Positions 1-64,000 of a stretch of 64,000 bases of DNA are shown one piece after another. The notes under the pieces are model-generated. The model saw nothing but the letters and a program-made list of their open reading frames with translations, did not search any database and had not been told where the DNA came from. The position numbers were made by a program, and so were the translations under genes. Each line of letters begins with the position of its first letter. Position 1 is the first letter of the stretch. The DNA comes from Bugula neritina (taxonomy: Eukaryota > Animalia > Bryozoa). Location: positions 8,628,698-8,692,697 of the forward strand of contig OZ037765.1 in the NCBI GenBank assembly GCA_964035545.1. Reading direction: 5' to 3'.

Positions 1-246
1 ACGAAACTACAGTCGAATTGCTTGTGACTAAATGCCAATCACTCACTAGAAAGCCCACATAATCATTGTGCATCGCACAACAATACCAAATTTTGATATG
101 ACAAAGAAATTAAACGACATTAAAATGAATCTGCATTGTAGCCATGTATTGTATTACTATAATATTTTTAAAATCTTATACATTGTTTATTTTTTATAAT
201 CGTATGTTCTTTCAAACATGTATAAAAGAAGGTAAATTCAACTAAC

Positions 247-1177
247 CTTGATCATTTTAAAAAGATGAACGACAATCTGCTTCTGCTTTAAAAGATCGCC
301 CTGTTGAGATGTCACCAATTTGCACAGATAATGAAAACTTCTTTTTCGTAAAGACTGTGTGTTGTTTGGTTTAAGCCAAAGAATAGAAATGCACGTTAGA
401 ATATTATTCAGTGAAGGCCCATATTGGCACACTGCAACCATGGCGAGCAACGACTGGATAATTGTGGCAAGAAGATTGCAACTGTTGCTACACGAGCTGA
501 ATGTCATCAAGTAGAAAAGATCTTCATTCAACTCCTCATCATCTTTCCATATGTCAGATCTCGAAACTCCACATGAATTATTGTTGTTGGAATTGTGATC
601 AGATTTTGAATCCAATTGAACTGTCTCTCCAGAAAGGTTACTACTACCGTTGTCTTGCTGAAGATTATTATTACTCTCAATTACAGAGTTTTCCATAAAA
701 ACTGGCTCACAATTTGAAGCGCTGTTCACATTGTGCTCATTACACTCAGAAGTAGTATGAGAACTAGCTCTTTTGAAGCGCTGCATTGTGTTTTCCAATA
801 CTTCTGGCACAGTAAAACTTAAACTATTGTAAATAGAGTTACTTTTGGTGCTTGAATGTTGGCTAGATGAAGTAGAAGTGCAAAGCTTATGCTCATTGAT
901 GACTTTCTGAAAGTTTGAGTTTACTGTTTTATGATAAGTGGTTGAATATGGCCAGAGATATGAACGGCCTGGTTTTCTATCCAACATAGAATGCAACGAC
1001 TCTTCAAAAGTTGAGTTTGTTGCTTCCAACCACATCTAAAGCAAAAGAAAATATTAATCCTGTTTTGCTCAACTTCAATCATATACACAGTGTGATAAGA
1101 TGCCTTATAATGCTAGAAAAACATCTATGTACTAATAACATACATGTCTTTCAACTCATTTATTTTTTATGCATCAG

Positions 1178-10200: not shown

Positions 10201-13200
10201 AGTTGATCATGATATTTGATTACAAAATATTTAGCAACTTTTATAATTCTTATTAAGCAAACTAGAAAATGTGCTTGGAATAATAAAGGAATAATAATGT
10301 GTCTTAATACAGTAAATATTTTGTTGATTAGGTGTGAACTTAAAATTGTTTATCATCTCATTTAAAATTAGTACAAACGATTATTTAAAAATTATTACAA
10401 ATGCACACTATAAAAGCTTAAACAATACCGCATCTTTGTTGGCTCTGAAATCAACATGAAGTAATCCCCGAACAAATGGATCCATAAACAACACCCTACC
10501 ATCCTAAAACATGTGCAAAGATGACAAATTACTAGTAAACACAAATACTCTACCTACTTGTGTAAATGCTTTTGCAGACAAAATTAAATACCAAGTATAG
10601 CAAAAATGAATGCAATAAATTACAAACACAAAATAGAGTGATTATTAAGTATACAATTGCTAAAAAACACCAAAAAATTTATATGTGCAAATTTTCAGTC
10701 TCAAAATAATATGAAGTCAGACTGTGATTAAAATTTCACTCATTGCAAGATAGTTTACTGTATATATAATATATAATCATAATGCAGCATTGACTTAAAT
10801 TTTGTTCCAGTTGTTTCACATACTGATTAACACTCTGACAAAATGACATTGAAAAACAATTATACCACTAACAGCTAGTATATACTCGGTCAGAAAAATC
10901 AAATGCCAAAAAAGTCATGAAGCATAAAAAACTGACTCACAGTTTAACTCTACATAAACTTACAGTTAAGCCAACTAGTAGAAATTTACTAGACACAGTC
11001 CCAGCCCACCCCTCATCTCCCCACAGCAAGATATTGCTATCGAGAGTAGCTATAGTAGTGCAGTCACACACTTCAACATTGACGTGCATCTCTCCTATAG
11101 CCTTATGTAGAGATGCTTTTCTTAGCAAGGATTCCTTTCTGTAAATCAAGTCAACAGAGTAGCAAGAAGCAGAGAAGAAAATGAGTGACTCAACAGAGGT
11201 GTAACACAAATTATAGATACTAATAAAAGCAGTTTGAAGTTATAATTGAAGCATTGGCACCTGCTTTTTTTTCCGATGCTTTATATTCAATATAAATCTC
11301 ATGTGAACACATCACCTATTCGTTGGTTCATGAAAGCTTTGCTAATGACATACTGAAAGTTGTATAAATAACTGCAATAACAAAATCCTTTAATGAAACC
11401 TTTTCACATTTCATAAAATCTAATCATCCAAAGGTTTACAAATAAACTGAATACATGATTAATATTAAAGGGGATAATATTTAATAATTTACTAACTTAG
11501 CTCCTTCAGACTGATCACCTTCATCTTTGTTGATTAGTGTTTCCTGTATGACTTTGAAGTCCCAGTGAGCAATCCGACAAGCTGGATCAGTTCTACAGTT
11601 ACAAACATAATGTAAATTTTACAACAAGCGAACGCATAAACTCTTGCAAATAAATTATGTTTTGATGCGCTGAAAAAAATGACAAAACATTATGTCAGCT
11701 TTTTATCATTTGTCAGTTAGTGATGTTTAAATGACTAACACTAATAAATGAACGTATAAAAAATGTTGGAAGAGTTTTTGACTAATACCTTGTAGTGTAG
11801 ATCCAGAGTTTAGATTGGTTGAGAAGACAGTAAATAAGATTCAGCTTTCTTGAGTAAGATATGCATTTCACAGTTTCCAAAGGAGACAGGCATGGCATGG
11901 GTAGCACATTGCATAAATTTCTCTTTTGATGTGGAGAAAATATCCTAACACTACAAATATGTTTTAGAACTATGTCCAAAACCATCATGAAATACAACAT
12001 GGTTGACAACATCAAAAAGTTTTTCTAGTATGGAACTTATTGACTCGTTTTAGTAACTTGAAGAATTCGTTAAAGAAGCAAATAAATTATACAATATTCT
12101 ACTAATATTTGCTAATGAAAAGTTACACATAAATTCAACTTGATTAGCATGGAGACTGGTCAATATCCAAAAGGCCCATTAGTCCGAAGGTCCATTGGTC
12201 CAAATAAAATTGTTTAAAATCATACCGTTATTATTTTTATTTTGCAGGTCTATATGTATTGTTCCTAATATGTTTCAGGTTCAAATCCCAAATCTCTAAA
12301 AATGGCTTGCCATATGCGTGTGTGCATGCGTACTAGGCAAATATTTTCGAGCCAATGGACCTTTGGACCAACAAGCTTTCAAAATATTGACCAGTCCCGG
12401 ATTAGCACATGGATAATTAGCCTACCAGCTATCATCACCAACAGTCATGAGTCGTGTGCTCTTCTTTGGAGCCGACTGCAAGCACATTCTCTTTGTGTTG
12501 TTCCTACTCAACGAGAAGAAGTGAACAAAGTGATTCAAATTCCACATTGTGACTTGTCTGGAGGTGCACGCCCAGAGTAAGTTCTCGTGAGTCAGACCCA
12601 TCCACTGAATCCCATCAGATGAAACGGTGATCCTGCAATACATGCATGAGTTATATATTTTATCATTTAAATTTAAACTCAAACTAAACTAAACCATTAC
12701 TCATCACTTACACTTTGTACTCTTAACTCAAACAAAGTCTCATAAATAATCTGCATTAAACACGGAACAGTTTAAATGCAGCATCACACATATTTGATTT
12801 TTAAATCAAATTTTCATAATATGACATTTTTTTAAATTTTACCAAAGTTTTTGCCTGTTAAGTTGATGTAGCAACAAAATGTTAGAAAAGTGAGAAGCAC
12901 ATGGCAAATACAACTACACAGAGTAGAGTATGTACAATATACAAAGTAGAGTATGTACAATACACAGAGTAGAATATGTACAATACACAGAGTAGAGTAT
13001 GTACAATACACAGAGTAGAGTATGTACAATACACAGAGTAGAGTATGTACAATACACAGAGTAGAGTATGTACAATACACAGAGTAGAGTAGGCTATGTA
13101 CAATACACAGAGTAGAGTATGTACAATACACAGGGCAGAGTATGTACAATACACAGGGTAGATTATGTACAATACGCAAAGTAGAGTATGTACAATACAT

Positions 13201-16200
13201 ACGAGTAAAGAGTGTTGAGAGTGTCAAGAGAAAGAAGTTTGATGCTGCAGTCTAAGGAACAGGTGAGCACTAAGGAGGGTGCCTGTGGATGCACCATTAT
13301 CTGTGTAACAGCTTTAGTGTGCACTCTAAATGTGTTCACCAAACCTCCATTCACAATCCAGCATTTCACTACAAAACATTTCAATAATAATATTGTACCT
13401 TATTCTAGCAGTATAATTATAGTATTGGTTAAATTTGTTTTTTTCTCTGCAATGGCAGAATATTAAAGCTACATGCAAATAGTTCAATAAATTTCTGCTC
13501 ATGAAACATTTATTTATATTTTTGAAATTTCAGCTTTTCGGCTGAAATTCAGCTGTAAAATGTTTTTAAAGTTCTGCAGCTAATAAGTCAATTATAATTA
13601 AGGAAAAAGAGAAAGCTTTAATGACTGTAGTTAAGTATCAGGTTTTCAAAAATTTGTGGTCTCTTATGACTGCCTCTAAGATGATTAATCATAATAAATA
13701 AATAGAAGAGCAAAGTTTAAACAATTTATAGTTAATACATACGAAGTAAAATTGCCAAAAAACCAACTGAGTTAGGAACTGAAAAAAGCACAGATGATTC
13801 CTATCCATTAGGATCATAAAAGAAGCTACAATTGCAACAAATGAATTGACTTTTTATAGTGTTGTTATAGTAAACAATAATTTACTTCTACCTGTAAAGG
13901 TATTATAAAGAATATATCTTTACATACCTGTACAATCATTACTAGAGGTAACTATCATCTGGGCCGATGAAGAATAAAGGCATCCTGTTATGGACATGTC
14001 ATGAGCTCTACAATGACACATTAAAAATAAACATTCAACAAATTATGGATATTTACATGTTTCTGGATAAACAAGGTCCAAGTGAAATTGCGCATTTATT
14101 ACTGGCTACCTTTGTTCAAGGTTGCATAAAACAGTTATTGCATCAATAGTAAGATCTGAAAGTTTTCAATACCTAGTAAGACTAAAGATCTCATCACCAG
14201 TGTTGAGATTGTAAGCATGGAGGTCTGTTTCCGAACAGCAGTAAAGATGTCCAAGATTATCATCCATAGTCACCTTTTTAACCCAGCCACCTCCAACATT
14301 ACCTAGTGTGTACCTGGAAAATAATTCAGTGAATTTAGTACCTGCATAATGTTAAAAAGTTTTAGTAAAAACATTTAGCTGTTTTAACTTGTTGTAGTTT
14401 TAAGACAATCAGAGATGTTATAAACAAGACAAGTTCCGAACATTCAGAAATTTCTTTAACTTTAAAAACTGATAGGCTGAGCATTCAAGAAATGGGATTT
14501 TTACAGGTGAAAAAGTGCCTTTTCTTATCAAAAATCACTCTTTGCTCAAGCTAGCAAAGTCGAAACAAAAGTATTGCCCTGTTCATCTTGAATACACAAT
14601 TTTTTTCAGCAAAGAAATCCAAAGCATTATTATCTAAGTGTGTTCACCATAGTAGTATAGGAAGCATCCTTTATAGAAACAATATTGGTTGCCGTCTTAG
14701 TTGAGTTTGCATATATGTTTTGGATACAATGATCAATTGAACTAGCACAACTAAAATAATAGTTTAATAATTAAAACAAATAATATTGAGGCTCAGAAAA
14801 AAATGTTAATATATGGAAGTTGCAAAACTTATAATTATATGGAAAGAATTTCAAAGCTCACTTGTGCTGTAATTTGTAATTTGACATTGCCTTCACTTCA
14901 GTCCAGCCTTTGTCTTCAACTACTTGTACAAACTGCCATATCTAGACAAACACGTGACATGTGTCAATAAATAATATAAACAGTAAACGATGCTATTATA
15001 GTAATATATGCATTACCAATAAAATCATTTGAAATTATAAGGCATGTGTCATCGAATGCATATTCTGTACTCTAAATGAAACAAGCTGAAGCTGTACAAT
15101 CATGCTGGAAATAACTAAAAAATATTTTGGATGACATTGAAAAATGCACAAAAATAACAAGCAGTAAATATATATGCATTCACAAAACTCATCACGATGC
15201 ATGTTCCATGCTCAGCTCTCAATACATTACACAAACAAAATAAATGAAAAAATCACATATTTCTGCAATACTGGCCAATCAGATAACACATACAGTGCAT
15301 GTAAATCATAGGGATAGTAATTGTGCATTGCAAATTATAGCAATCAGAGTAGGTGCCCAGTATTTTTACACTGAACAACAAATCAATTGTAAAGTTGACA
15401 ATAGCTTAATATAAGACAGTAAACAGTATCTACTGAGCCCCAATTTCATTACAGAAATGATTCTCTAGATAACAGAGCTTCCACAATGCTTATGCATGGA
15501 ATATGAATTTTCCAATAGTTTTTTCAACACATAAGCACATAAATTATACACTATATAGACAACATATAACATTTAAAGCCACTCACAATGAAAGATGCAC
15601 TTATTTTCTATAAATAAATATCAAATGCAGATGCAAGTACAAGTAGAAACTTCTAATGAATGCACTAAATCGGCATGTATTGGTCATAATTTAATTGATA
15701 CAGTGGTATTACAAAGCGCCGCACAATTCAGACTGATGGCAAATAATATGAAATATTGTTTCAAAGAAAGATTTTTTGAAATTGAGTATTATGGTTACAT
15801 AGATTGGTAAAGCATAAGCTAAAGAAGAAAATGATTAAGCAATGCATGATGATAGAAAAGCACCAGATGCATATAAATATAAAGTGTAAAATTGGGTTCT
15901 GGGTAGACAATGAGCTGTATGATTGAAAAAGCAAAGAATGTTTCACAACTAAGAAGAGTAGCTGACCCTCACCTGTAAGCACAGGTAATCTTACCTGACA
16001 AAGCCTACGCTGACTCTGACATATATTTTAACTGGTAAAACTGTAAAACACCCAGCAGCGACTTTAATTAATCATCTTCAGAAGCAATATATACAAGGTT
16101 AGGAATAAACTAAATAATAATTATTTGTTTATAAAAATAATACATCTTTTGCTGCTGCAAATTTCAAACTAATATTAAATTCAAATACAAGATTTATCTT

Positions 16201-17968: not shown

Positions 17969-20234
17969 GGCACTACTGAAAAACAATCAAATAATGTGCC
18001 TTGAACAATGCCTAAGTAACTATAAAGATTCATTTTTTCAAGTTCACAAAAAAATATTGACATAACAAGGTTTCTCAATCTATATAAGAGTTGTGTTTAG
18101 TTGATAACATGACTTGTTGACAAAGATCTCCACATGCTAGTTACAAAAGAGGTTTGTCAACAAAAAATTCACCCAAAAACTGAATACATTTTGTTCATTT
18201 TACTACACAATATAGATTTGGAAAAAAATAATAAAACAAAAGATTAGATCTAAAACAATGTGTTACAATAAATTTTAGTGTTTCCATAACAAAGATTCCT
18301 GATTCAAACCATATAGCCTATTTTTTACTAGTTCTGTTGCATGATCACAAAGTCAGATAAATAAATGAGTCATTAGCCAGCAGCTGCTGTAATATGAAGA
18401 TATATTTGTTGTAATCACTATAAAGATATATCGTATGCATCATTAAAATAAAAACCCGGATGCTAAAATCAACATATTTGCTGAAAGCTTGTGCTAGATC
18501 AGTAATTTATTTTTTTGAAACTCTGCAAAAAAATTGTGACAAGTTAGTCAATATATAGCAGTGCTTCAGTAGTAGTTTGTATTATTTAAAGCCTAAGCTA
18601 AAATTATCATCAAGCTTATATGGACATGATGATAATAAATTAAGATGATTAAGCTATTCTACAAATACAATATCAAAACAGCACATCCAGAATAAAAATA
18701 AGACTTGAAGCAAAAATGACAATTATTAAGCGGCTAGCTATTCTATTGCAGCTTAAAAGTTATATTCAATCTTGATATAAAAATGTACAATTGGGTTACC
18801 ATATCGTTAGTAACATTTCCAGTTTAATTGATAGTTGAGTCTGAAATGTGCAGACTAAAGTACTTGTAGCTTGCTGAAACTGCTAAAGTGGCTTTTTAAA
18901 TGATTGACTTGATATTTAAATTATCACTATATTAAAAATATAAGCTCCAAGCTACTGCCAACAAACAATAAATGTTCAGCATTTAATATTGTAGTTATCA
19001 CATGCTTATGCATAGCTTAAAATAATCTGAGCAGCAAATAGAATACTAAAAAATGTAGCACAGAGCCAACTTGAATGATAATCATTATGATTATTTTAAC
19101 TCTAAGAAAAGTTTATATACTAAAATAGATCAGATCAGTCGCAAAATTTATTAGCATTATGATAATAATTTCAGGTATAACTCTTTGAATCATAAATGTA
19201 AAATTCAACTTTTTCAAGTATTCATATATCACAGCATTCGATTGCATTTATTGGTTGAACATTTTACTTTGGTAGGTTGAACTTGAAGAATGGAGCTATT
19301 TTAAAGTATAACTATAAGTGTAATTATATCATTATCTGCCCTGCTACTAAGTATAAAACAATAAGCTTAAATAAATAATGACCACTGTCATTTACTTCAT
19401 ATTTTAGTTTTTAAAGTTACTTGTACTACTATTATTTTTAGTTTTAGTTTCAGAATCATGATGATGAATATAACTATAAGTTTAAAATAGTTAAAATTAA
19501 ATACTTTTCAATACTAATAGTAATAGTAATAAGCAATTTAGAATGCTTTATATCTGTATTGTAACTATTAAAAAAAGCTAGTTTACAAATACAGTACTTG
19601 AATTGACACTTGCACTGCACATAAGTTGTGTCGACAGAAAATTACATCGATACATTCAGTGACTTTAAATAAAAGATTCGTACTGATACTCGAAAGTCTG
19701 CGGCCATACATCATGGTTGTGGTCGTCAATGAAATTAACTGATGATGCACGGCAATACCAGCACTACCAATAGCTAATTGAAAAGTATAAAATATAAGCA
19801 TCACGACTATTATTTTACAGTAATATAAAATGCAGTTAAATTAAAAAACAAAACTATTTATTAATAAAGCAGAGAATAGATTCAAAATGATAATTCTGTA
19901 AAATATGATTAATACGATAAATTGTTGAGGAACTGTTCTTTGAGACTAGGAACAAGAAAACAATACTGGCGCGTACTTTTCAATCCTATTTGTTGTGGTG
20001 CGCTGCATCATGGTGATTCCCTCATAACTTTATAACTTTATGTTTTAAGTTATTGTATCAATATAATTCTTCTCTTTTCTTTAAAACCACACATGGTTGC
20101 AACCTTCAGGCTCATGGCAATAGTTACAAATAAAATACTTAATATTTTTCGACTAACTCAACAATACTTATACTATTAGTATTACTATTGCAGTAATACT
20201 AATAGTAATAGTAATAATAGTAATACTATTAGTA

Positions 20235-20365
20235 ATAGTAATACTATATTACTGATAGCAATACTAATAGTAAGACTAATACTAATACTAATAGTAATAG
20301 TATTACTATTAGTATTAGTATTAGTCTTACTATTAGTATTGCTATCAGTAATATAGTATTACTAT
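20235..20365. repeat. Perfect inverted repeat: 65-bp arms, 1-nt spacer (G20300)
   Basis: 20235-20299 is the exact reverse complement of 20301-20365, checked base by base. Confidence 0.9.
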
Positions 20366-21073
20366 AACTATTACTATTACACTTAGTCTTAGTCTTACAG
20401 TAATTATGAAGATAGTCATACTCATACTCGTAGTCATACTCATAGTGATACTGATACTCTTAGTCTCGCACTGATGGTCTTACTCTTAGTGATAGTGACA
20501 ATCAGTATCACTAGCAGTATCACTATCAGTATTAGTATGAGTATTAGTATTAGTAACTTGTAACGTTAGCCTTTATGCAGATGATACCCTCTTATATCAG
20601 GAAGTCAACTGCTACGAGGAATCGGTGGAATTTCAAAAAAACATTGATGCTGTACAAGCATGGTCGCAGAAATGGAAAATGCCATTTAACGCATCTAAAT
20701 GCCATGCAATAGCATTCAACAAAAGAAGCCAAACACCCGCGTATAAACTAGGTGATGCTGACATACCTTGGACAGACAAGACTCGCTATCTTGGTATCAC
20801 GCTCCAGCAAGATCTAAAGTTTGACCAACACATCGCTCAAAAAACCAGCAAAGCAACCAAAATTCTTGGGGCTATAAAATACACACTACACTCTGCACCT
20901 ACCAAAAGCCGATTATTGGCATACACTAGCCTGTGTCGACCGATACTGGAGTATGGGGACACTCTATGGGATCCCACCAGTAAACAGACCATTGAATTCA
21001 TAGAAAGTGTTCAACGGAAAGCTGTCCGCTTCATAAGTACTGTTAACCCTTACGCGATCAATGGACCATATAT

Positions 21074-21425
21074 TGTAGTAATTTGTGCAATTACTGAGCG
21101 TGAGTTATTTACTTGCGTATAGTTAGCTGGTTATTCTGTTATCGATTACTAGGGTAGCTGTCGAGTAATTATATTTATTATCCACAATAAAGCATAAACC
21201 AAACATCACATCAAATTATCCTATACAAGAGTCAACTACTAACACATGTTACTACTACAAGCCTCCGCTTACAACAACGTGATATAATGTTAATAACCCG
21301 GGAAGTGTCACGTGACTCGGAAGCATATCTTCCGGAGCTGCTAATTGGTTGCTACATAAGAGTCTAAGTATTCCAAGAATAGGGAGAGGGCGATTCCTGT
21401 ATTTGTACTTGCACTACTCACTACA
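21074..21425 (-). repeat. 3' LTR of element 1
   Basis: Identical by eye to 25985-26336; TG...CA ends; minus-strand AATAAA near 21175. Confidence 0.95.
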
Positions 21426-21440
21426 CCGTCCCCCCCAGCA
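21426..21440 (-). other. Polypurine tract of element 1
   Basis: Minus strand reads TGCTGGGGGGGACGG directly before the 3' LTR; the flanking CCAGCAGAAAGCCCT is shared with element 2. Confidence 0.85.
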
Positions 21441-21715
21441 GAAAGCCCTACTTTCTGATAACACAATAAAAAAACATAATGAAAAACCATACAATAATCC
21501 AAAAAGGAAATATTCATAAGTAAACCCACAAAGAGTAAGAAAAGAAATAGTTAAACACGACAACGTTTACATTAGAAGACAACAGGGTGATCGATCACAC
21601 ACATCTAGTCAGCTATTAAGAGAGAGGGTGCTTACCAGCACGCGGGCCAATGTCGGAGCGCTCGTCACATCCTAAACGAGCTATAGCTCAACGAAGGTGC
21701 CTACCCCAGGCATTC

Positions 21716-22768
21716 TCATTGGTTGGACTCTGCTTCTTGTAGCGACCGTGCTCTGTGTCGAGCCTGTCGGGCCCGTAGCCGCCTCTTCAGTCGTCCCACT
21801 GAGTCTTTCAACTGGTATAGACCTGTCGTCGTATCCAGCAAGTCAGGGGCAAGTTGTGTGAACTCGGCTTGCAGTCTTAGAAGCCGCTCTTCTACGTTAG
21901 CCAGCTGGCTAGGCCTTGGTGGGGTTATAGGGGTCTCCGTTATACGGGATATGGTTGTTTCTTCTACTTCTGGGGTGTTGCTGGGGTTGACGGGGGTAGG
22001 AGGTGGGCCCTGAACCATAGGGGACTTATGGCGGGCAGATAGTAACAGTACGTGAAACCCTGACGTTAGTGCGGCCAGGGTAATAGCCTTCCTGATGACT
22101 GGCTTGATGGCATCCAGGTATAGGGGGAAACTGTCTTCATCAACAGTGTGGTTCTCTCCGGCGAAGCAGCTTAGCTTATGTACTGTCACGGGATACGGGT
22201 AGACGTCGTGGAACCCGCAGGGACAGAAGTGGAGTAGGAAATGGGCATCTACATGTAACCGCAAGGAGCGGTGCGACGGACACTCCTCAAAGCAGACCTG
22301 GCAGGTTCGGTGTGGTCCACTGGGTCCCCAGGCTTCTTCAATTCTCCTCTCTGTCGTGGGTGACACCCAACGGTGTCGTCGGCGGAGTACTACTGGTATG
22401 CCATTCTCCATTACAGGCTCTTCTTCCATAGACAGAGAGGTTGGCTGGTCCCGTGACCGGGAGGTGGTCACTCGAGTGTGATCTGAAAGAGTAGCAGTGT
22501 TAAAGATTATACACTGAGACACCGTCGGCGTGTACAGCCTGACCGGTACTCTGTTCAGTTACACTCGTGAGATTCAGGCTAATGAATAGTTGATGGAGAA
22601 CACACTCGCTATGACAGATTATTTAAAATCAAAGTCGACGTGTATTCCCACCACTGTTTATCATTATCGAATCTCCAGCTAGCTAGTGTAGCTAAGCTGA
22701 CTGATGCAGTCTAGTTATCGTACCAAAAACATAATTAACTCACCCTTCGATCCAGAATAGTAAGACAT
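21716..22768 (-). CDS. Accessory zinc-finger/coiled-coil protein of element 1; predicted exons 22768-22744 and 22482-21716 (263 aa)
   Basis: C-x2-C-x12-H-x3-H (CQVC..H VDA H), C-x-C-x12-H-x3-C, a Pro-rich linker, heptad repeat and basic tail. AAAATG start, G|GTGAGT donor, TCTTTCAG acceptor, phases compatible. The ORF is seen directly; splicing is inferred. Confidence 0.8.
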
Positions 22769-22791
22769 TTTGGAATGAGAGTGGTAACTGA

Positions 22792-25050
22792 TTACTGTTT
22801 ACTGGCACGTCTACTCTCGACTGCATCAACATAGGAAAAGACCGGACAGCGTGGTTGTGAAACGTGACTAGGGCTTTTCACTTCCAGCGGATGAATCTCG
22901 TGTGAGATTCCGCCGAGGCAAAAGTTGAGATTCTCGTGGTGATCACAACTCCCACGGCTCTTTGCCTGTTTTCCCATGCGAGGCCTCTCTAGACTTTTGT
23001 TACTGCCGCTTATACCGCGGTCACGTACACAGTCTCTGAGACACGCTGGAAGTTGCCTAGTGTGTGGTGCTGGTCCTATGTTGGCATCTCCTTGCGGAGC
23101 CCCTCCCACGGGGGGTTTTTGCACTTCCGGACCTGTTTCTGGTTCCGGAAGTGGTGATGATGGCAGGCTTGACGTTGGGGGCGGTGGGCGCACTTTCAAG
23201 GACGGAAGTGGCCTTTCTCGCCTCGCCAAGTCTTCCTGACGTGTCATGGAGGTGTTTCCGGCCAGGTTGACAGTCTCCGCCTGCCGAGACCTTCTCGCAC
23301 AATGCGTCTGCCGCCCCGCTTCACCAGGGAGACGGCTATGCTTGTTGGTCTGGCAGACTTTGCACCGTCTCACTCTGCGTCGGATATCCCGTTCCATGTT
23401 AGGCCAGTACCACCGGAGTTGTAGCTTGGTGACCACCCCTTGGACTCCTCCGTGAGTCTCCTCGTGGGTGTCTTGTATCAACTTCCGGCGGATGGCAACT
23501 GGGCAGACAACCCTCTTCCTGGCTGGCTGTCTGCTGTTGGCGGCCAAGGTCATGGTTAGCAGACCATCTGGCCCGACCCGCAGAGAGCTCCAACGTTGAC
23601 AGTACAGCCGTAACTCGGCGCATCCCTGTCGCCGTTGTGTACTACTGGGTCGTCGCCCCTCCTGTTTCGCTCGGTACACGTCGGCTACCACCCCAGGAAG
23701 GCATTCCTGGAGCTTCGGCAGCTCCCTAACGTTACCAGCCCATACAGGTTTGGCGCGGAGGCTCTGGGCAGCCTCCGGGGGCGTGTCAGCCCTCTGTTGA
23801 AGTGGCTGAGCAGGGGCGGTCCTCGCCGCCCGTGGTACCTCACGGCAGCCTGCTCTATTTAGGCGGGCTCCGTGGTTTGTGTGGCTGAACGCCTCACTGT
23901 ACCCATGTGGCAACCTAGCCCTAACCTGGCGCTTCCCGTTGCCTGTGCAGCCACGCGTCCCTGGAGGGGGGGAGGCGTGGGTTGGGACGGTCCTCCGCCC
24001 TCGAGACGGGCTCTGCTGAGGACCTTCCGTCGTAGCTCCCGACGACGGCCCAATGGCTTCCTCCTGGACAGGATGGAAGTGACCCAGCATGGATCTGGGT
24101 GGTAGGTCTACTGTCTCTGAGAAGGGGTTGACACACTGCACTGAGATCTCTCCTTGCCCCGTGAGCCGGCTAAAACTACGGGCAAGTTGGACTCTCGAGT
24201 GCGTACTTTCGACAACTCCCAACTTAGAGGTTTGGCCACCGTCTACCTTGCAGCGGACGGTAGCCCGGGAGTGGCCTGGTATAGTACAGCTCCGTACTAC
24301 CTGCACTGCTCCCGCTAGAGGACGACCAAACTTATCGACACAAGCGAGCTCCTTGTCGCCCATGATTATCGCAGATTTACTGAAATCAATGCGACAACCG
24401 TGTCGTTGTAAGAATGGCATCCCGAGGATAGCATCCTCGTTGAGCTGCCCGACGATGAACGTCTCTTGGATGGCCTGGCTACGGACGTAACCAGTTAGCT
24501 CAATAATGCCGTAGAAGGGAATGCACGACCCGTCTGCCAAGGTGCCGTGATCCCCCTCGTACGGTGCCAACCTGTCCTTGACCTTAGCGCTGAGGGTGTC
24601 AAAGAACTGACGGCTAAGGAGGTTGGTGGTGCAGCCGGAGTCCAGGAGGAAGTTGGCAGGCTTGCCGGCTAACTTCCCTGGCAGGAAGTAGCTACTTCCG
24701 TGCGGCTGCAGTTGAGTGTGCCGTGGTTGCACCTCCCTCGCTGTGGGTCGAGGGGTCCACGGTTGGCGGCGACTATTGACCAGCTGCCGAGGTTGGGGCG
24801 GTACGCCTTGCGGCGCTTGTACCGTTTCCCTCGCAGGCTCTGTGGTCAACCGTCTGCCGGCTCCGTGTTGGTGCCGGAGTGGCGTAGAGGACCCAGGCGG
24901 CGAGTGGCTTGAGCCTACTTGCCGCGGGGGTCGCCACTTCACAGCATCTCCGCGCGGCGCCCAGCGGGGCGACAGACGCGCGGGCCTCCCTGGGTGATTT
25001 ACAGACGGCCCGCAGGAGGTGGGAACATCTGCGGGCCGGGGTAGTTTAAC
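22792..25050 (-). CDS. pol: Internally deleted pol: aspartic protease, integrase HHCC finger and integrase C-terminal tail; no RT, RNase H or integrase DDE core
   Basis: FLLDSGCTTNLL and AILGMPFL (retropepsin); THEETHGG..WYWPNM..CKVC (integrase zinc finger). No YxDD or DDE core. Lies in the -1 frame relative to gag. Confidence 0.85.
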   Translation of the reverse strand, partial: VKLPRPADVPTSCGPSVNHPGRPARLSPRWAPRGDAVKWRPPRQVGSSHSPPGSSTPLRHQHGAGRRLTTEPARETVQAPQGVPPQPRQLVNSRRQPWTPRPTAREVQPRHTQLQPHGSSYFLPGKLAGKPANFLLDSGCTTNLLSRQFFDTLSAKVKDRLAPYEGDHGTLADGSCIPFYGIIELTGYVRSQAIQETFIVGQLNEDAILGMPFLQRHGCRIDFSKSAIIMGDKELACVDKFGRPLAGAVQVVRSCTIPGHSRATVRCKVDGGQTSKLGVVESTHSRVQLARSFSRLTGQGEISVQCVNPFSETVDLPPRSMLGHFHPVQEEAIGPSSGATTEGPQQSPSRGRRTVPTHASPPPGTRGCTGNGKRQVRARLPHGYSEAFSHTNHGARLNRAGCREVPRAARTAPAQPLQQRADTPPEAAQSLRAKPVWAGNVRELPKLQECLPGVVADVYRAKQEGRRPSSTQRRQGCAELRLYCQRWSSLRVGPDGLLTMTLAANSRQPARKRVVCPVAIRRKLIQDTHEETHGGVQGVVTKLQLRWYWPNMERDIRRRVRRCKVCQTNKHSRLPGEAGRQTHCARRSRQAETVNLAGNTSMTRQEDLARRERPLPSLKVRPPPPTSSLPSSPLPEPETGPEVQKPPVGGAPQGDANIGPAPHTRQLPACLRDCVRDRGISGSNKSLERPRMGKQAKSRGSCDHHENLNFCLGGISHEIHPLEVKSPSHVSQPRCPVFSYVDAVESRRASKQ

Positions 25051-25964
25051 CCTGGTGGGAGTTGAGGGCAGTTTCTCTGGAAATGTCCTGGCCTTCCGCA
25101 TTCCCAGCAGAAGTGGTGCCCCATGTCTGGTGATTGTACCTGCGGCCCGCAAGGCTCACGGGCAGTATCTACCTGGCTTGGGGAGGCTAATGTGGTGACC
25201 AGTTTATCTAGCATGTCAGTCATCTGTGAGATTTTTGACACTAGTGACATCTGGTTCACATTAGCCACCGCGGAGGGTTCCGCATTTACTTCGGTGTGAG
25301 CAGTAGAGTGCTCCGTGGTCACCTGGCGGGAGGCCACGCGGTTGCGGTGCATATGAGTCGCCAAGAAATAGGCTTCTCCCACCGCAAGTGCATCTTCGAC
25401 TGTGGTGACTCCCCTCGCTTGGAGTTGATGGTGGAGCCCCAAGTCGTTGATGGACTGCACGAAGGCATCATAGGTATACCTCTCACGGTGTACCGGAGGC
25501 AGATCGCGGAATGCGATCTGCGCTAATGGGTACACCGTGGCAGCGTGCTCTTCTAGTGACGTGTGAGGATCACGCCGCATCCTCTGCAGACGGGCCCGCG
25601 CATCTATGGGAGAGATGCCAAAACGGGCCCGCAGGGAAGCAAAGATTCCGTCTATGTCAGGTCCAGCTCCGTACGGCTTAGCTTTGCCCGTCAGCGCCAT
25701 CCTGAGCTTTAGCAACGCCACCCTTGGCGGCCATTCTGCAATCTCCATCACATCTTGGAATTCTTGAATAAACTGCTCCACTGCTTCTTCGCCAGTGAAG
25801 GTGGGCGCCTTCAGCCGGTATCTATCTTCACCATGCCCTCTAAGAATTCTCACTTCTTCATCTAACACCACTGGTTCCACAGGTATATCAACATTATCTC
25901 TCTCACCTTCATTCAGTGGAATGGGTAGCTCCGTGCCGTCTTCTGCCATGACTGCTATACGCAA
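24999..25964 (-). CDS. gag: Gag with C-terminal CCHC zinc knuckle
   Basis: KAPTFTG..VEQFIQEF..W..LRMALTGKA capsid-like motifs; CWECGRPGHFQRNC knuckle; begins just after the PBS (first ATG near 25949). Confidence 0.9.
   Translation of the reverse strand: MRIAVMAEDGTELPIPLNEGERDNVDIPVEPVVLDEEVRILRGHGEDRYRLKAPTFTGEEAVEQFIQEFQDVMEIAEWPPRVALLKLRMALTGKAKPYGAGPDIDGIFASLRARFGISPIDARARLQRMRRDPHTSLEEHAATVYPLAQIAFRDLPPVHRERYTYDAFVQSINDLGLHHQLQARGVTTVEDALAVGEAYFLATHMHRNRVASRQVTTEHSTAHTEVNAEPSAVANVNQMSLVSKISQMTDMLDKLVTTLASPSQVDTAREPCGPQVQSPDMGHHFCWECGRPGHFQRNCPQLPPGLNYPGPQMFPPPAGRL
25006..25050 (-). promoter_or_regulatory. Predicted -1 ribosomal frameshift cassette (G_UUA_AAC plus stem-loop)
   Basis: Heptamer at 25050-25044 in the correct gag phase, 5-nt spacer, perfect 10-bp stem CGGCCCGCAG/CTGCGGGCCG (25038-25029 / 25015-25006). 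Confidence 0.75.
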
Positions 25965-25965
25965 G

Positions 25966-25983
25966 ATCCCACCGCTGCCACCA
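25966..25983 (-). other. Primer-binding site, tRNA-Leu type
   Basis: TGGTGGCAGCGGTGGGAT begins 1 nt after the 5' LTR and is complementary to the metazoan tRNA-Leu 3' end (ATCCCACCGCTGCCA-CCA). Confidence 0.85.
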
Positions 25984-25984
25984 C

Positions 25985-26336
25985 TGTAGTAATTTGTGCA
26001 ATTACTGAGCGTGAGTTATTTACTTGCGTATAGTTAGCTGGTTATTCTGTTATCGATTACTAGGGTAGCTGTCGAGTAATTATATTTATTATCCACAATA
26101 AAGCATAAACCAAACATCACATCAAATTATCCTATACAAGAGTCAACTACTAACACATGTTACTACTACAAGCCTCCGCTTACAACAACGTGATATAATG
26201 TTAATAACCCGGGAAGTGTCACGTGACTCGGAAGCATATCTTCCGGAGCTGCTAATTGGTTGCTACATAAGAGTCTAAGTATTCCAAGAATAGGGAGAGG
26301 GCGATTCCTGTATTTGTACTTGCACTACTCACTACA
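25985..26336 (-). repeat. 5' LTR of element 1
   Basis: 352 bp, identical by eye to 21074-21425; adjacent to the PBS. Confidence 0.95.
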
Positions 26337-28658
26337 ATATGTCCCTGAAAGCGACACTATCCACAGATCAATGGACCATATATGGTCTTTTAGGTAAACA
26401 AACAATAGCGCTTACTTTAAACTTCCAGTTTTCAACCGAAAAGCCTAAAACTTTTTTGTAATTGAGGTTGATAGGGCAGCTTAGTAACTATGGAATAATT
26501 AGAGCCATTAAATTTGATTAAATTAATAGCTACCAAGCCAGCTAGTTGCTTTTCAATTTAATCCTAAAATTTCAAAATTGTCGGTAAATTTTAACGCTAC
26601 TTTCAAATGCATGAAACTGCTGTCAAATTATAGAGAGCCAGTTTATTTTATTCAGATTACATTTAGAAGATTATCTAAATAAACAGAAATGTTAAATTCA
26701 CTATATTTTGAATCATATTATAAATTAATTTTATCATTTTGATTTTTCAATTTTAAAATAGCGGTTTTGAGAGGCAAATTAAAATGACTGATTTTAGCTA
26801 GAATTGAGGTCTCCTGTCACTTTAAGAAGCTTTTTATAAAAGAAAATACTCTTAAAATTATAATACCCAGTTTAATTAAGGCCAAAATCAAGTGTAACTT
26901 TTTAATATTGAAATTGAAAGTTATGCAAAATTTGTTAGCAAATTTCGCGATAAACTCAAACGAGGCTTGAAATTACGTAACTTCAAAGTTGATCGCCAAA
27001 GGGTTAAAGGACGGGAAAGTGTCACTGAAGCCAGAAATCTTCTTGAACTGGTACCACTAGAATCCAGAAGACGAAACCATCGAATGACATTACTACACAA
27101 AATTCTAGAAAATGAAACCAGCAATAATACTTTATCTTCTAATTATGATGAGATCGTCAACAACCGCTTAAATACAACTATGACCACTAGAGCTGCGAGC
27201 AGAGGACAGTTAACATCAATATCTGCAAAGACTAGTGTCTACCACAACAGCTTCCTTCCCCGAACAATACGGGACTTGAGAATAAATGTTCATGAATAAT
27301 TAGAAAAAAAATCAGTGACATGCTGATTCACTGCCTACCCACTGTAACACACTGTTATAAACGAGGCATTTAACTTACACATTTTTGTGATATCTAAATG
27401 TTCTATCGACACAGAATGTGCCATCAGAATCACACTGTGACATTGTGAGTGTCCGTGATTCACTGTGACTGTAAATTCTTTATTATTATTTAATTTTATT
27501 ACTCATAAATTTGAAACTGTAACTTGAAGTTAAACTTACTCTTAGGCATTTAATGATTGATATTATAATTATAATTATACTGACAGTAACAGTAATAATA
27601 ATATTAATTATAGTTCTACTTATATGTATAACCATAGGCATAAGTCTATGACTAAGAGTAAGTATAATTAAAACTCTAAAATTAAAACTATTGTAGTAGA
27701 TTTTGGCTGTAAATATTATTAATGTTATCTTCCCTGCAGTACTTTGTAGTCTTGCATATTATTATCATGCCTGTGGGTAATAGTTGGCTGTGTACTAAGA
27801 TGCATTTAGCCGTTCATATCTAGAATCTTCTTTTACTTTTTCTTTGTTCTTATACCATGTAGTGGGTAGCGGGGTAGTTATGTATAAGCCTGGATCGGGC
27901 TAGTCTAGAACTTTCTATAACTTCCATTGTTCATGCATATGGGATTGCTTTCTATTGGTTAGTTTGTAAATAATGATGCAGTCCATATGGCGTGATGAGC
28001 TCCCTGGCAGACGCCCGAATTCGGCAGAATTGGATGCATGAATGTCGATTCGGGTATCCGATTACTCTGATTGGGACTCTTATTAGATTTTCGGACGCCC
28101 CAAATGTGCTGATTCGGCATATTTGAACGCCCAAATCGGTTACCCATCTCAGAATGAGACTTTCCACTCATATATAAGTGAGGTGGAATGCCTCGGTGGG
28201 TGAGTAGGGCCGGAGCTGCGCTTAGTGACAGTACTCTCTTTATTATTACATGTTGTTATAATTACCTTTTGGTGGCTACTCTATTGTAATGAGTCAGACA
28301 TGGGCTCTATAATAAGCAAGTCTTCAATACATTTTATCTGACTGGCAAATCTCGTCTTCTCTCTCATACTCTTTGGCAAAGAGCTCTTATGTTCTGGTTG
28401 TAGCATCAGCTTCTTGTGAATCTCCAGTGATTTTATAACCCTGCATTCCCTCGCAGGATAAAATTACTACACTATTCGAGTAATTCAAATATAAAATTGA
28501 AATAACTGTTTTCATGCTGAAATTTACTGTGTTTTACAGTATAATTATAATGATTAAGTTAATTGAAATAGCTTTTTACGAAGCATCAATAATAACAATA
28601 TTTGTTTATTTTACAGGCAAAAAACTTACCTTAATCATAACTACCTAATAGAATTCTA

Positions 28659-60894: not shown

Positions 60895-61894
60895 TTTCAC
60901 CTTTAAAAAAGGTTAATCCTACAATGAAAGGGTAAATAAATTTAATACAAAAAAACTAATAGAAATACAGATGTAAGCAATAATGATAAACATAAGACAA
61001 TTGTCAATTACAAAAGAGGAAATTTAGCTATGACAAGTAAAATATATTGATACAGACATAAACATATCAATTACTTGAACATGCTACAATATATCTATCT
61101 ATTCAATTTCGTATAATATCAAAAAGAAAAATAATAAAAAACATTCTATTATATTTTTACGTAACAAAATTTAATAATGATAATAAATCCCACAAAAAGT
61201 GGTAATATAAACTAAAAAGTATAGCTAAAAACTGCCCAGATTTTTGCTTGTCTGCTACGTACTGCAAGACCTTAACAAACTAGTTAAAAGTGCAACACCA
61301 GCAATATGCATATTGTTATGATTTTCAGTTTTAGGGTTGATGTGCCACCAAGAGAGTCTATTTATCACTAGAGAAACTGCACCGAGTTAAGTCGAGTAGA
61401 TATCGTTATATTTTAATACAAGAATACATAATAAAATCTAATGTACAACAGTAATGATACGCACGTCTATTTAATTTACAGCACTATCCTCAACTGAGCT
61501 AGTAGCGCGAAGCTGCTACTATTACTCATAAAACAGCCTAGCTAATTGGCTAATACATTGTTCCGGGTCAATACGCAACCTTGCGTATTGTGTTGCTGGT
61601 AGCTCCACGAGCCACCACACTGCCCCCTCCAGCAGAAAGCCCTCTTTCTGATAAAAATAAAATTCACATAAAAAAAATGTATACTTCGTTGGGGGGGGGG
61701 GGAAGAGAACAGTATAAAAGTATATACAAAAAAAACAAACAACCAATGAAATATACAGGTATATATAAAACGTGCACAATAAGTAATAAGTAAGAGAAGG
61801 TCCTATCTACAGGTAGAGTACGTGCCACCATAACGGTAGGGAATGCCACAGAGAGGTAGGGGAAGAGTAGTATGGAGTTGGAGATAGACTCAAG

Positions 61895-63024
61895 TTAACT
61901 GCGTGCCGCACGCTTCATGCGTTTAATAGACTCCTGTAAATATTTGAGTTCACTGGATGCAGCCTGTATCCGTGGGGCCAGCCTATACACTTCTTGCTCC
62001 AAGTCGTGTGCCCTAGCTTCTACTTCACGTAGGTTGCGGGCCCAGGGGGACGAGCGAGAGGAAGTCGGCTGTCTGTGTCTTTTCCGCTCTGAGGATGGAA
62101 GGGGAGGAGGGAGTGTATACGCATTCGTGTCTACCCTCTGTAGTACGACACGAGGAAAGGTATGCGGCATGCGTAGAGGACTGTGAGGTGGAGAGTTAGT
62201 AGACTGTATAGGTTTATCTGTGGCTCCAGAGATGATGGGTCGCGGGGAAGGGAAGCCTTGCTCCAGGCGAGATAGCCGAGCTGAGTCAGTGATGAGTGGT
62301 TTGATGGCGTTGAGAAATGCAGGATAGGATGATTCGTCTACTTCATAGACATGTCCTTGATAACACTGCATAGTACGTTGGTGACGCAGTAGGTAATCAC
62401 GATTGTAGCTATATTCTCCGCAAGGGCAGAAAGTGGTGATGTAATGTTGCGGCAAGTGTACTTTCAGTCTGCGGTGGGTTGTAAATCGCTGCTGGCAGAG
62501 GTTACATTCGCGATTACTTTCACCTCCTTGATGAGTCCTAATCTCCCTCTCTGTGGCAGGGGTAATCCAGTTGGAGGTTGCTTCCAACTGGGGTGGCAGT
62601 TGCCTGGTTGTAGAAGTTGTTGGGGCCGGCTCTGGGTCTCACGCCATCTCTAGAGAAGGCATGCCCGGAGAGACGGGCGCGAGTGTGTCTACAAAAGTAG
62701 AATTATTGTTAGATCGCGGTGGATCTTTACAACATAATTCTAGTGACTGTCGACCGTTGCTAGCCTGAGAGTCACAGCTTTTGGAATGCACTCGAGGAAC
62801 CGATGAATCATGTGTGGACTGACCAAGAACAGTGTCTAGCTCCAGGTCTAACAGACCGTCGGCCATTACAGTGTCTTCATCGTCATTCACATGAAACGTG
62901 GTTCCCAGTAATTCTGATTCAATCTGCTGAATTAGTTCAGAATTTACTGGCATCGAGCCCGTTTCCATGAATAGGAATACAAGACTTATACTGGCTTACC
63001 TGGGAACTCGGTATTAATGTCCAT
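61895..63024 (-). CDS. Accessory zinc-finger/coiled-coil gene of element 2; predicted exons 63024-63000 and 62688-61895, with one in-frame TGA at 62641-62639
   Basis: CNLC-x12-H LPQ H, FCPCG-x11-H..C, VDESSYP..L.AIKP and a C-terminal heptads/basic tail align with the element 1 ORF. G|GTAAGC donor and TTTTGTAG acceptor. Confidence 0.75.
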
Positions 63025-64000
63025 ACTCAACGTTCTTGGTAAGATTGGAGCTGGTTGTGAGATACGTCTGCCTTTGGCAATGTCAGCATAAGAAAAGGCT
63101 GAGCATCGTTTCTCAGGCACGAGGTCGGAACTATTTGCTTTACGCGCATTAATTCCTCCCACTATTCCGCCCTCGCAAAAGTTGATATTTGCGTGGGGTT
63201 CACAACTCCAACATTTTATCGTACGGTTTTCCCCTAGACTTTCATGTGCGCCGCTTCTAATGCAGTCACATACGAAGTCTTTTAAATATGGTGGGGGTTT
63301 CCTCGTACGCTGTCCCCTTTCTAGGGGGGGTGACACGCTTGCCGGTTCGTTAGTAGGGGCCTCTAATGGCGTCTCTACTTCACCGTTAGCGGTCACCTCT
63401 TCTTGTTCTCCGGATGGAGCCCCTCCCTCCATGGGGGTTTGCACTTCCGGAATCGGCTCGGTTTCTGGAAGTGATGGAATTAGACTTGGCGGTGGCGGAC
63501 ACGCTTCTGTTGACAAAAGCTGCCGCTCCTCTCTCACCAAGTTTTCTTCCCGCGGTATGACCACTTCGTATTCAGGTCCATGCCGCCGTCGCCCGCGCGT
63601 CGTTGTCTGCCTCCTGGGCTCTAACAACGGGGGGGCTTCTCCCACTCCGTCGGGGCTAGCCCAATACGGTTTCAAGCGAGACTCATTCTGGATAGACACC
63701 TGTCCTGAGCGCTCGATCTTGTACGTATGATTGGGCATAGCCTCGACGACCACGTAGGGCCCTACGAACTTAGGCTTCAGTTTATCAGCCTGTCCGCGAC
63801 GCCTACAGTAATTGACCATCCACACCTTATCTCCCGTTTGATAGAGAGGTGGTTCATCGGAATCTTCGTGCCGCACCTTCCACTGCTGTTGGCGCAGTAT
63901 ATCGTGTGCGGCCTTCATCCGTTCCACTAGTTCACTGGCATACTCGTGAACCGAGTTGTCTTGCTCTGGAACGTGATAGGTGAGATGGTCAGGGACACGA
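62986..64000 (-). CDS. pol: pol, integrase C-terminal part (partial; open to the window edge)
   Basis: YQTGDKVW..KLKPKFVGPYVVVE..HTYKI (GPY/F module) and RTRKPPPYLKDFV; the tail is homologous to the end of element 1 pol. Confidence 0.9.
   Translation of the reverse strand, partial: RVPDHLTYHVPEQDNSVHEYASELVERMKAAHDILRQQQWKVRHEDSDEPPLYQTGDKVWMVNYCRRRGQADKLKPKFVGPYVVVEAMPNHTYKIERSGQVSIQNESRLKPYWASPDGVGEAPPLLEPRRQTTTRGRRRHGPEYEVVIPREENLVREERQLLSTEACPPPPSLIPSLPETEPIPEVQTPMEGGAPSGEQEEVTANGEVETPLEAPTNEPASVSPPLERGQRTRKPPPYLKDFVCDCIRSGAHESLGENRTIKCWSCEPHANINFCEGGIVGGINARKANSSDLVPEKRCSAFSYADIAKGRRISQPAPILPRTLSMDINTEFPGKPV

What the first reader, a model, noticed from the sequence alone, without database searches (positions are those of the whole stretch)
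21716..22768. Gypsy family carrying a conserved non-Env accessory gene: tandem zinc fingers plus coiled coil
Seen: two diverged Gypsy elements with dissimilar LTRs (21074-26336 and 61314->64000) each have an extra sense ORF between pol and the PPT. The two proteins align: W(V/I)(S/T)PxTERxI, a classical C-x2-C-x12-H-x3-H finger, an atypical FCPCG-x11-H-x3/5-C finger, VDExS(F/Y)PxxLxAIKPxI, a variable Pro-rich linker, and LxxVExRxxxLxxExxxLAP heptads ending in a basic tail. Established: this slot holds env in errantiviruses, but these proteins show no signal peptide or transmembrane helix. Inference: motif conservation across strong divergence points to selection on an element-encoded oligomerising nucleic-acid-binding factor. 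Possible roles are LTR transactivator, RNA export/splicing regulator, anti-silencing factor or integration tether. I do not recognise a described family, but cannot confirm novelty without a search.
Basis: partly seen in the sequence, partly recalled or inferred. Interest (0 to 1): 0.92.

Follow-up and report, generated by a model that had tools for sequence, protein, structure and literature searches.

The report
Spliced zinc-finger gene of Gypsy retrotransposons
A group of Gypsy jumping genes, whose only named relatives come from bryozoans (moss animals), carries a conserved extra gene for a zinc-finger protein with a predicted coiled coil where retroviruses keep their envelope gene, and this protein likely acts in the nucleus to switch on the element's own expression.

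Summary
Real, and not described in the papers searched. Both Gypsy elements carry a sense ORF3 between pol and the PPT (29% identical, E 4e-28); all five claimed motifs are present. New here: ORF3 has the same two-exon layout in both elements (ATG + 25 nt, phase-1 intron), and element 1's exact splice joint occurs in a public contig. Synonymous sites are saturated while the finger core is kept, so selection is purifying. A profile finds 325 relatives; the only named ones are bryozoan. Two independent records show the Gypsy link: L022 (ORF-PPT-LTR-PBS-gag-protease) and P0316 (in frame behind RNase H-integrase). Corrections: element 1 is a young non-autonomous copy (identical LTRs; no RT, RNase H or integrase core); element 2's ORF3 has an in-frame stop; the last ligand of finger 2 varies; bryozoan host gene models carry the same domain. 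Best reading: a nuclear, likely dimeric, nucleic-acid-binding regulator, most likely a transactivator or anti-silencer (0.45). Rivals: CERV/Rev-like RNA export (0.27) and integrase tether (0.15). Function is untested.

The parts
25985..26336 (-). Element 1, 5' LTR (352 bp, TG...CA)
   Evidence: 352/352 identical to the 3' LTR
25966..25983 (-). Primer-binding site (tRNA-Leu type, assignment recalled); the same motif follows the LTR of L022
24999..25949 (-). gag, 316 aa from the first ATG, one CCHC knuckle
   Evidence: zf-CCHC 23.6 bits, above cut-off; 33% identical to L022 gag, E 2e-38
22792..25155 (-). Deleted pol frame (-1 to gag): aspartic protease and integrase H2C2 domain present; RT, RNase H and integrase core absent
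   Evidence: related contigs diverge from it at 23988 and at 23253-23310
22744..22768 (-). ORF3 exon 1 (ATG plus 8 codons and 1 nt; not in the pol frame)
22483..22743 (-). ORF3 intron, 261 nt, GT-AG, phase 1
   Evidence: donor and acceptor consensus; exact joint 22482/22744 in one contig of run X1, near-identical joint in run X8
21716..22482 (-). ORF3 exon 2: double zinc-finger domain, Pro-rich linker, heptad helix with Arg-rich end
22031..22405 (-). Core domain: W-helix, C2H2 finger (22241-22303), C-x-C...H...C finger (22166-22228), VD-helix
   Evidence: 6 ligands invariant in 38 diverse relatives; pLDDT 84-98 per block of ten
21719..21904 (-). Predicted coiled-coil helix and basic tail
   Evidence: helix 192-253 of the model; a/d hydrophobic fraction 0.75
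21426..21436 (-). Polypurine tract, element 1
21074..21425 (-). Element 1, 3' LTR
21070..21073 (.). Target-site duplication ATAT (partner 26337-26340)
   Evidence: empty-site joint in runs X7 and X8
62986..64000 (-). Element 2, pol 3' end (integrase SH3 region and tail); runs off the window
   Evidence: 44% identical to the integrase region of P0316
63000..63024 (-). Element 2, predicted ORF3 exon 1 (ATG + 25 nt, in the pol frame)
   Evidence: splicing not observed for this element
62689..62999 (-). Element 2, predicted phase-1 intron (311 nt); it also holds an acidic open frame from ATG 62968 that runs into ORF3
   Evidence: 25 stored homologues match this frame
61895..62688 (-). Element 2, ORF3 exon 2, interrupted by an in-frame stop at 62639-62641
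61314..61619 (-). Element 2, 3' LTR (inner edge inferred from the PPT; 5' LTR lies outside the window)

Best explanation
These Gypsy elements carry a conserved third gene, spliced in element 1 and predicted spliced in element 2, whose product likely enters the nucleus, likely dimerises through its C-terminal coiled coil, and likely binds the element's own DNA with its double zinc-finger domain to raise or protect the element's transcription (a transactivator or anti-silencer). Steps: (1) a short spliced mRNA makes ORF3 apart from Gag-Pol (splice joint shown for element 1; start of the transcript unknown); (2) basic clusters take it to the nucleus (inferred); (3) the heptad helix pairs two subunits (predicted from sequence); (4) finger 1, with Arg/Lys at helix positions 2, 3 and 5, contacts nucleic acid, taken to be DNA in the LTR or in the nucleotide-conserved block at the end of pol (inferred); (5) the acidic N-terminal region, long in family 2 and distant members and short in family 1, would recruit transcription machinery (inferred). 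The benefit acts on RNA output, which would explain why a non-autonomous copy lacking RT, RNase H and integrase core keeps ORF3 intact.
For: Purifying selection. The same exon layout in proteins only 29% identical. The layout acidic N-terminus / fingers / basic linker / heptad helix is general: upstream part net acidic in 50 of 57, downstream part net basic in 104 of 117, basic cluster in 89 of 117. Finger 1 helix position 2 is R or K in 136 of 164, and position 5 in 135 of 164 (near-copies inflate these counts). The nearest solved relatives of the finger region are DNA-binding C2H2 domains, weakly: SALL3 E 0.0013, Kaiso Z 3.9, rmsd 3.5, 59 aligned. No transmembrane segment (3 of 176 relatives exceed KD 1.8). 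ORF3 is intact in a copy with identical LTRs and no RT/integrase core. The pol tail keeps identical codons more often than ORF3 (24/35 against 22/55, Fisher p 0.01), a candidate cis element.
Against: No binding or expression data: no holder is on record as RNA and the kind of run X1 is unknown. The LTRs of elements 1, 2 and L022 share no 8-mer and no more 7-mers than the upper range of shuffles (6 against mean 2.5), although finger 1's helix is conserved, so no common DNA site was found. The fingers are joined by H-x5-C, not the usual TGEKP linker, and family 1 has an atypical finger 2 and only a short acidic N-terminus. In P0316 the domain lies in one frame with integrase, which fits a tether at least as well. 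The one functionally tested Gypsy ORF in this slot that I found, CERV, is an RNA export factor.
Confidence: 0.45

Rival explanations
1. ORF3 is a Rev/CERV-like factor: made from the spliced RNA, it would bind and multimerise on unspliced genomic RNA and get it exported or protect it from splicing.
For: Same slot and spliced expression as CERV, which is needed for Cer1 genomic-RNA export and uses invariant Cys and Arg residues (PMC10309623). The elements hold working splice sites inside their genomic RNA, and element 2's predicted donor lies within pol. Arg-rich helical tail in family 1. The nucleotide-conserved pol tail could be an RNA response element. Conserved finger residues beside unalignable LTRs fit an RNA or backbone target.
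Against: In element 1 the intron lies outside gag and pol, and intron-less forms exist in contigs of runs X1 and X8; if these runs are DNA, as their stepped depths suggest, spliced genomes are still copied. The acidic N-terminus (50 of 57) is not needed for export. CERV is described with a C4-type loop and a G-protein-like domain, not C2H2 fingers.
Confidence: 0.27
2. The domain is an integration tether or pre-integration-complex factor, made as a C-terminal extension of Pol or acting in trans, that would steer integrase to chromatin or DNA, as chromodomains do in chromoviruses (recalled).
For: P0316 is one 1460-aa frame: RNase H, integrase H2C2, rve and SH3, then the finger pair at about 1100 and the helix. 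P0266 and P0267 carry a pol-tail-like motif in frame (2 of 94; shuffle mean 0.1, maximum 2). Splicing of element 2's full-length RNA would join the pol frame to ORF3.
Against: In element 1 ORF3 is out of frame with pol and is kept although the integrase core is gone. P0316 has an internal Met followed by an acidic helix at residue 791 that looks like a separate ORF3 start. P0262 of the same cluster was called as a stand-alone 409-aa ORF. Both insertions sit at plain ATAT sites.
Confidence: 0.15
3. ORF3 is a captured host zinc-finger gene carried as a passenger, with no role for the element.
For: Five named clusters are gene models of Bugula neritina and Watersipora subatra; two share an extra N-terminal domain, and a third shows it by eye. 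Many metagenomic copies are truncated or have lost ligands (84-99% retention).
Against: Ligands, fold and exon layout are kept across elements whose synonymous sites are saturated. The slot is the same in L022, whose gag is only 33% identical. The host-annotated domains do not form one clade (AU p 0.0002).
Confidence: 0.04

Closest known systems
CERV of Cer1 (Caenorhabditis Ty3/Gypsy element; PMC10309623: abstract, passages and section 15 read)
   Same: [quoted passage not shown]
   Different: The paper reports no homology outside Caenorhabditis, a C4-type loop, a G-protein-like domain, 517 aa and an N-terminus shared with Gag. Here: a C2H2 finger plus a C-x-C...H...C/H finger, a 25-nt private first exon and a long C-terminal helix. 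No direct sequence comparison was possible.
Complex-retrovirus regulators (foamy virus Tas/Bel1, HTLV Tax/Rex, HIV Tat/Rev; recalled, Tat and Rev also in PMC7264820 passages)
   Same: Small regulators encoded 3' of pol and expressed by splicing.
   Different: No Pfam match to any of them; the host element is an env-less Gypsy.
Bdelloid LTR-retrotransposon ORF3s (PMC5408684, passages read)
   Same: Non-Env ORF3s of invertebrate Gypsy-like elements, described as typically expressed from spliced messages; includes a coiled-coil type.
   Different: Those are GDSL esterases, DEDDy nucleases, TM or coiled-coil proteins; 'zinc' and 'C2H2' do not occur in the main text, and the authors saw no significant departure from neutrality within the genome.
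Plant additional ORFs (PMC7264820, passages read) and fungal brtn-type antisense genes (earlier finding e1-7827144, unchecked)
   Same: [quoted passage not shown]
   Different: Mostly antisense or Env-like; 'zinc' does not occur in the plant review; the fungal gene is antisense with a six-cysteine domain.
Env of errantiviruses, including bryozoan gB-type elements (PMC13524379, passages read)
   Same: A third gene in a Gypsy element.
   Different: The bryozoan elements there are Gag-Env-Pol with a gB-like glycoprotein; this ORF3 has no transmembrane segment, and 'zinc finger' does not occur in that paper's main text.
Classical C2H2 transcription factors (SALL, Kaiso/ZBTB33)
   Same: Finger 1 has the C-x2-C-x12-H-x3-H spacing and the F/L core.
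   Different: Short hydrophobic H-x5-C linker, C-x-C second finger, and flanking helices predicted as one domain; matches are weak (E 0.0013; Z 3.9).

Membership tests
Ty3/Gypsy LTR retrotransposon | TG...CA LTRs, PBS, PPT, short target duplication | tested here: met
Ty3/Gypsy LTR retrotransposon | gag with CCHC knuckle; pol order PR-RT-RH-IN | tested here: met
   PR before the integrase H2C2 domain in element 1; RNase H before integrase in relative P0316. RT and RNase H are deleted in element 1
Ty3/Gypsy LTR retrotransposon | Clade placement by RT phylogeny | not testable with these tools
   no RT in the window's elements, L022 or P0316; no genome held
Errantivirus / Env ORF3 | Signal peptide, fusion peptide, transmembrane anchor | tested here: not met
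   maximum KD19 1.43 and 0.45; no Env family in Pfam; hydropathy scan only
CERV (Cer1) | Spliced ORF 3' of pol | tested here: met
CERV (Cer1) | H, M and G domains with a C4-type Cys loop; N-terminus shared with Gag | tested here: not met
   C2H2-type fingers and a private 25-nt first exon, judged against the paper's description; no sequence comparison
CERV (Cer1) | Required for genomic-RNA export | not testable with these tools
   needs experiment
Classical C2H2 zinc finger (PF00096) | C-x2-C-x12-H-x3-H with a hydrophobic core | tested here: met
   pattern present in both proteins; element 2 scores 16.9 bits, below the 25.2 cut-off, and element 1 has no hit
Classical C2H2 zinc finger array | TGEKP-type linker between fingers | tested here: not met
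   H-x5-C hydrophobic linker in the alignment of 38 relatives
Any solved or predicted viral fold for the core domain | Structural match over the whole core | tested here: inconclusive
   no Foldseek hit at E <= 0.001; the wide search was filled by the coil; the core-only model failed (pLDDT 37)
Retroviral transactivators (Tas/Tax/Tat) | Sequence family match | tested here: not met
   Pfam scans of 60 and 38 members
Retroviral transactivators (Tas/Tax/Tat) | Activates its own LTR or internal promoter | not testable with these tools
   needs reporter assay

The most novel reading that the evidence does not exclude
An old, env-less Gypsy lineage of bryozoans encodes its own zinc-finger transcription factor, making it a 'complex' retrotransposon with a self-made transactivator. 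The module is expressed as a Pol-terminal frame in some families and as a separately spliced gene in others, and hosts have domesticated it several times into new zinc-finger gene families.
Probability: 0.3. Interest if true: 0.88.

Novelty: new variant of a known kind. Interest (0 to 1): 0.72.

Why it matters
Regulatory accessory genes are a hallmark of complex retroviruses. Among Gypsy elements, CERV is the one functionally tested case my searches found. This family gives a second, unrelated and widespread candidate with a clear anatomy, a young intact copy and known exon boundaries, so transcription, export and tethering can be told apart by standard assays. It also offers a tractable case of zinc-finger genes moving between retrotransposons and hosts: similar domains sit in annotated Bugula and Watersipora genes at several places in the tree.

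Tried and rejected
No whole genome is held, so genome-wide linkage and copy-tree dN/dS could not be run. The search for related loci found no confirmed relative in metagenome contigs (19 pattern matches, 0 confirmed) or viral contigs (59, 0). The degenerate DNA pattern gave 28 loci, of which 1 (L022) is a true relative. The 'longer' homologue search covered only 1244-3550 aa and found none; P0316 (1460 aa) was missed there and found only through its cluster. No RNA holder was listed. Copy-level variants inside ORF3 were not obtained: one search lists only one place in exon 2. The core-only fold was run without an alignment and failed, so the core's fold is not properly searched. ESM Atlas gave only unnamed clusters and generic C2H2 families at 0.89-0.94. 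No shared LTR motif above shuffles at 8 letters. Env-like role rejected (no TM). Chance ORF rejected. The long coil matches to many PDB helices (Z <= 6.7) are generic. Ten paper searches showed no description of this family; most hits were seen as listings only. Repbase, Dfam, GyDB and most subscription papers were not searchable, and no supplements were read, so a Repbase note on such an ORF is not excluded. PMC6238403 (passages) did not help place the clade.

Full report
OBSERVATION. The window is AT-rich and intron-bearing, with two GC-rich islands that are the two elements. Element 1 (21074-26336, minus strand) has 352-bp LTRs identical at all positions, a PBS, a PPT and an ATAT target duplication. 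Its gag has a CCHC knuckle. Its 787-aa pol frame matches only an aspartic protease and the integrase zinc-binding domain, with no RT, RNase H or integrase core, so it is a young non-autonomous copy. Element 2 shows a 3' LTR, a PPT and the integrase C-terminus before leaving the window. Each has a sense ORF between pol and the PPT. The proteins align at 29% identity, E 4e-28, and all five claimed motifs are present in both.

GENE STRUCTURE. A donor at 22743 and an acceptor at 22483 define a 261-nt phase-1 intron that puts it in frame. Laying 4 public runs on the element showed this exact joint (22482/22744) in one contig of run X1 and a near-identical one in X8. The kind of these runs is not on record; their stepped depths suggest DNA, in which case these are intron-less reinserted copies. 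Either way the joint was made by splicing. Element 2 has the same predicted layout: an ATG 25 nt before a donor at 62999 and a phase-1 acceptor at 62689. Its first exon is the last stretch of pol, in the pol frame. Its intron also contains an acidic open frame shared with 25 stored homologues. This copy has an in-frame stop at 62639-62641, whereas several family-2 homologues are open for 355-366 aa.

FAMILY. Single-sequence searches gave 134 and 38 relatives, none of those listed named or carrying a Pfam domain. A profile of 60 sequences found 325 of 1.84 billion representatives at E <= 0.001 and 140 at E <= 1e-10. Of 30 clusters looked up, 5 name an organism, all bryozoan: three Bugula neritina and two Watersipora subatra. 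In 38 diverse members six ligands are invariant (C-x2-C...H-x3-H-x5-C-x-C), and the G, second-finger H, V-D and P are nearly so; the last ligand of finger 2 varies. AlphaFold2 with the alignment gave mean pLDDT 84.7: an ordered core of about 125 residues, a disordered Pro linker and a 62-residue helix. No fold search gave a convincing match, and the core was not searched alone with a good model.

LINKAGE TO GYPSY. Context is unavailable for most relatives. Two independent records settle that the link is not local. L022, the 1 true hit among 28 pattern loci, reads ORF - stop - PPT - LTR - the same PBS motif - gag (33% identical to element 1) - protease. P0316 is a single frame with RNase H, complete integrase and SH3, then the finger pair and helix. 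Weaker support: P0180 and P0288 align to element 2's pol, and P0266 and P0267 have a pol-tail-like motif. Against pure element linkage, five named clusters are gene models in host assemblies. On a core-domain tree neither the 7 host-annotated domains nor the 7 element-linked ones form one clade (AU p 0.0002 and 4e-8; 33 rows chosen for diversity, quick tree, groups named after I had seen an earlier tree). Several exchanges are thus likely; the tree is unrooted, so direction is not shown, and some 'host' models may be annotated element genes.

SELECTION. Between the two elements the ORF3 core has pS 0.82 (saturated) and pN 0.49 over 114 codons; the coil has pS 0.72 and pN 0.49 over 45. Among 119 family-1 proteins plus the query, mean pairwise identity is 68% in the core, 81% in the coil and 33% in the linker; family 2 gives 69%, 62% and 48% (rows covering under 70% of a region were dropped). 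Ligand retention of 84-99% among copies fits decaying transposon copies of a selected gene.

MECHANISM. Shown: position, splice joint in element 1, conservation, lack of a membrane anchor. Inferred: nuclear location (basic cluster in 89 of 117), dimerisation (a/d positions hydrophobic in 13 of 13 in element 2 and 12 of 16 in element 1), nucleic-acid binding (basic finger-1 helix) and an acidic activation-like N-terminus (50 of 57). That order of parts is that of a transcription factor, and keeping ORF3 while losing the enzymes fits a factor acting on RNA output. I put transactivator or anti-silencer at 0.45. I found no shared LTR site. CERV shows that a Gypsy ORF in this slot can be an RNA export factor, 0.27. 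The in-frame Pol fusion of P0316 and the predicted in-frame splice of element 2 keep an integrase tether open, 0.15. A passenger gene is unlikely, 0.04.

COMPARISON AND NOVELTY. Extra ORFs 3' of pol are known in plants, bdelloids, fungi and nematodes, so the kind is known. This family matches none of them by the features tested, and ten full-text searches did not show it described. Repeat databases could not be searched. Papers seen: PMC10309623 (abstract, passages, section 15); PMC13524379, PMC5408684, PMC7264820 and PMC6238403 (passages); all others as listings; no supplements. The tRNA-Leu label, the chromovirus analogy, and Tas, Tax and Rex are recalled.

VERDICT. Observation confirmed and extended; interpretation supported; function untested. 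New variant of a known kind, interest 0.72.

Noticed in passing
window 21074-26336: Element 1 is a non-autonomous deletion derivative whose 787-aa pol frame stays open across two deletions. In run X1, identical pieces have depth 4100-4900 against about 120 for rare joints, which hints at a few dozen near-identical copies; the tool warns that depth is no copy number.
   Followed up: partly
window 22482/22744: The intron-less joint has depth 843 in run X1, about 7 times the rare-joint depth. If X1 is DNA, spliced genomes have been copied back into the genome.
   Followed up: partly
window 24400-24000 (pol aa about 255-390): The region after the protease looks like a dUTPase-like fold from memory; Pfam gave no hit.
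   Followed up: no
window 22800-22950 and 63050-63230: A block at the pol 3' end is conserved at nucleotide level between the two elements: a candidate internal promoter, splice acceptor or RNA element.
   Followed up: partly
proteins P0303, P0315 (Bugula, adjacent locus tags), P0222, P0307 (Watersipora), P0300 (Bugula): Host gene models carry one or two copies of the same core domain; three share an unknown N-terminal domain with a Y-x-G...LYH motif. Possibly repeated domestications.
   Followed up: partly
window 20541-21050: Fragment of a non-LTR (LINE) reverse transcriptase directly left of element 1 (RVT_1, E 1.8e-8).
   Followed up: no
window 21056-21073 and 26367-26385: An 18-nt sequence just left of the insertion recurs about 30 nt to its right, so the target lies in a short repeated element; the empty-site joints in X7 and X8 may come from paralogous sites.
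   Followed up: no
window 238-1035, 2062-3030, 4459-4977: Long minus-strand open frames, probably exons of a host gene; weak Pfam hint U3snoRNP10 (E 0.011), no PDB match for the first two.
   Followed up: partly
window 51926-52440 and 53739-53877: 222-nt inverted repeat (94% complementary) with a partial second copy, resembling a MITE or foldback element.
   Followed up: no
window 12909-13207 and 20170-20560: 23-bp tandem array (12.7 copies) and a palindromic (TAC/TAT)-rich minisatellite.
   Followed up: no
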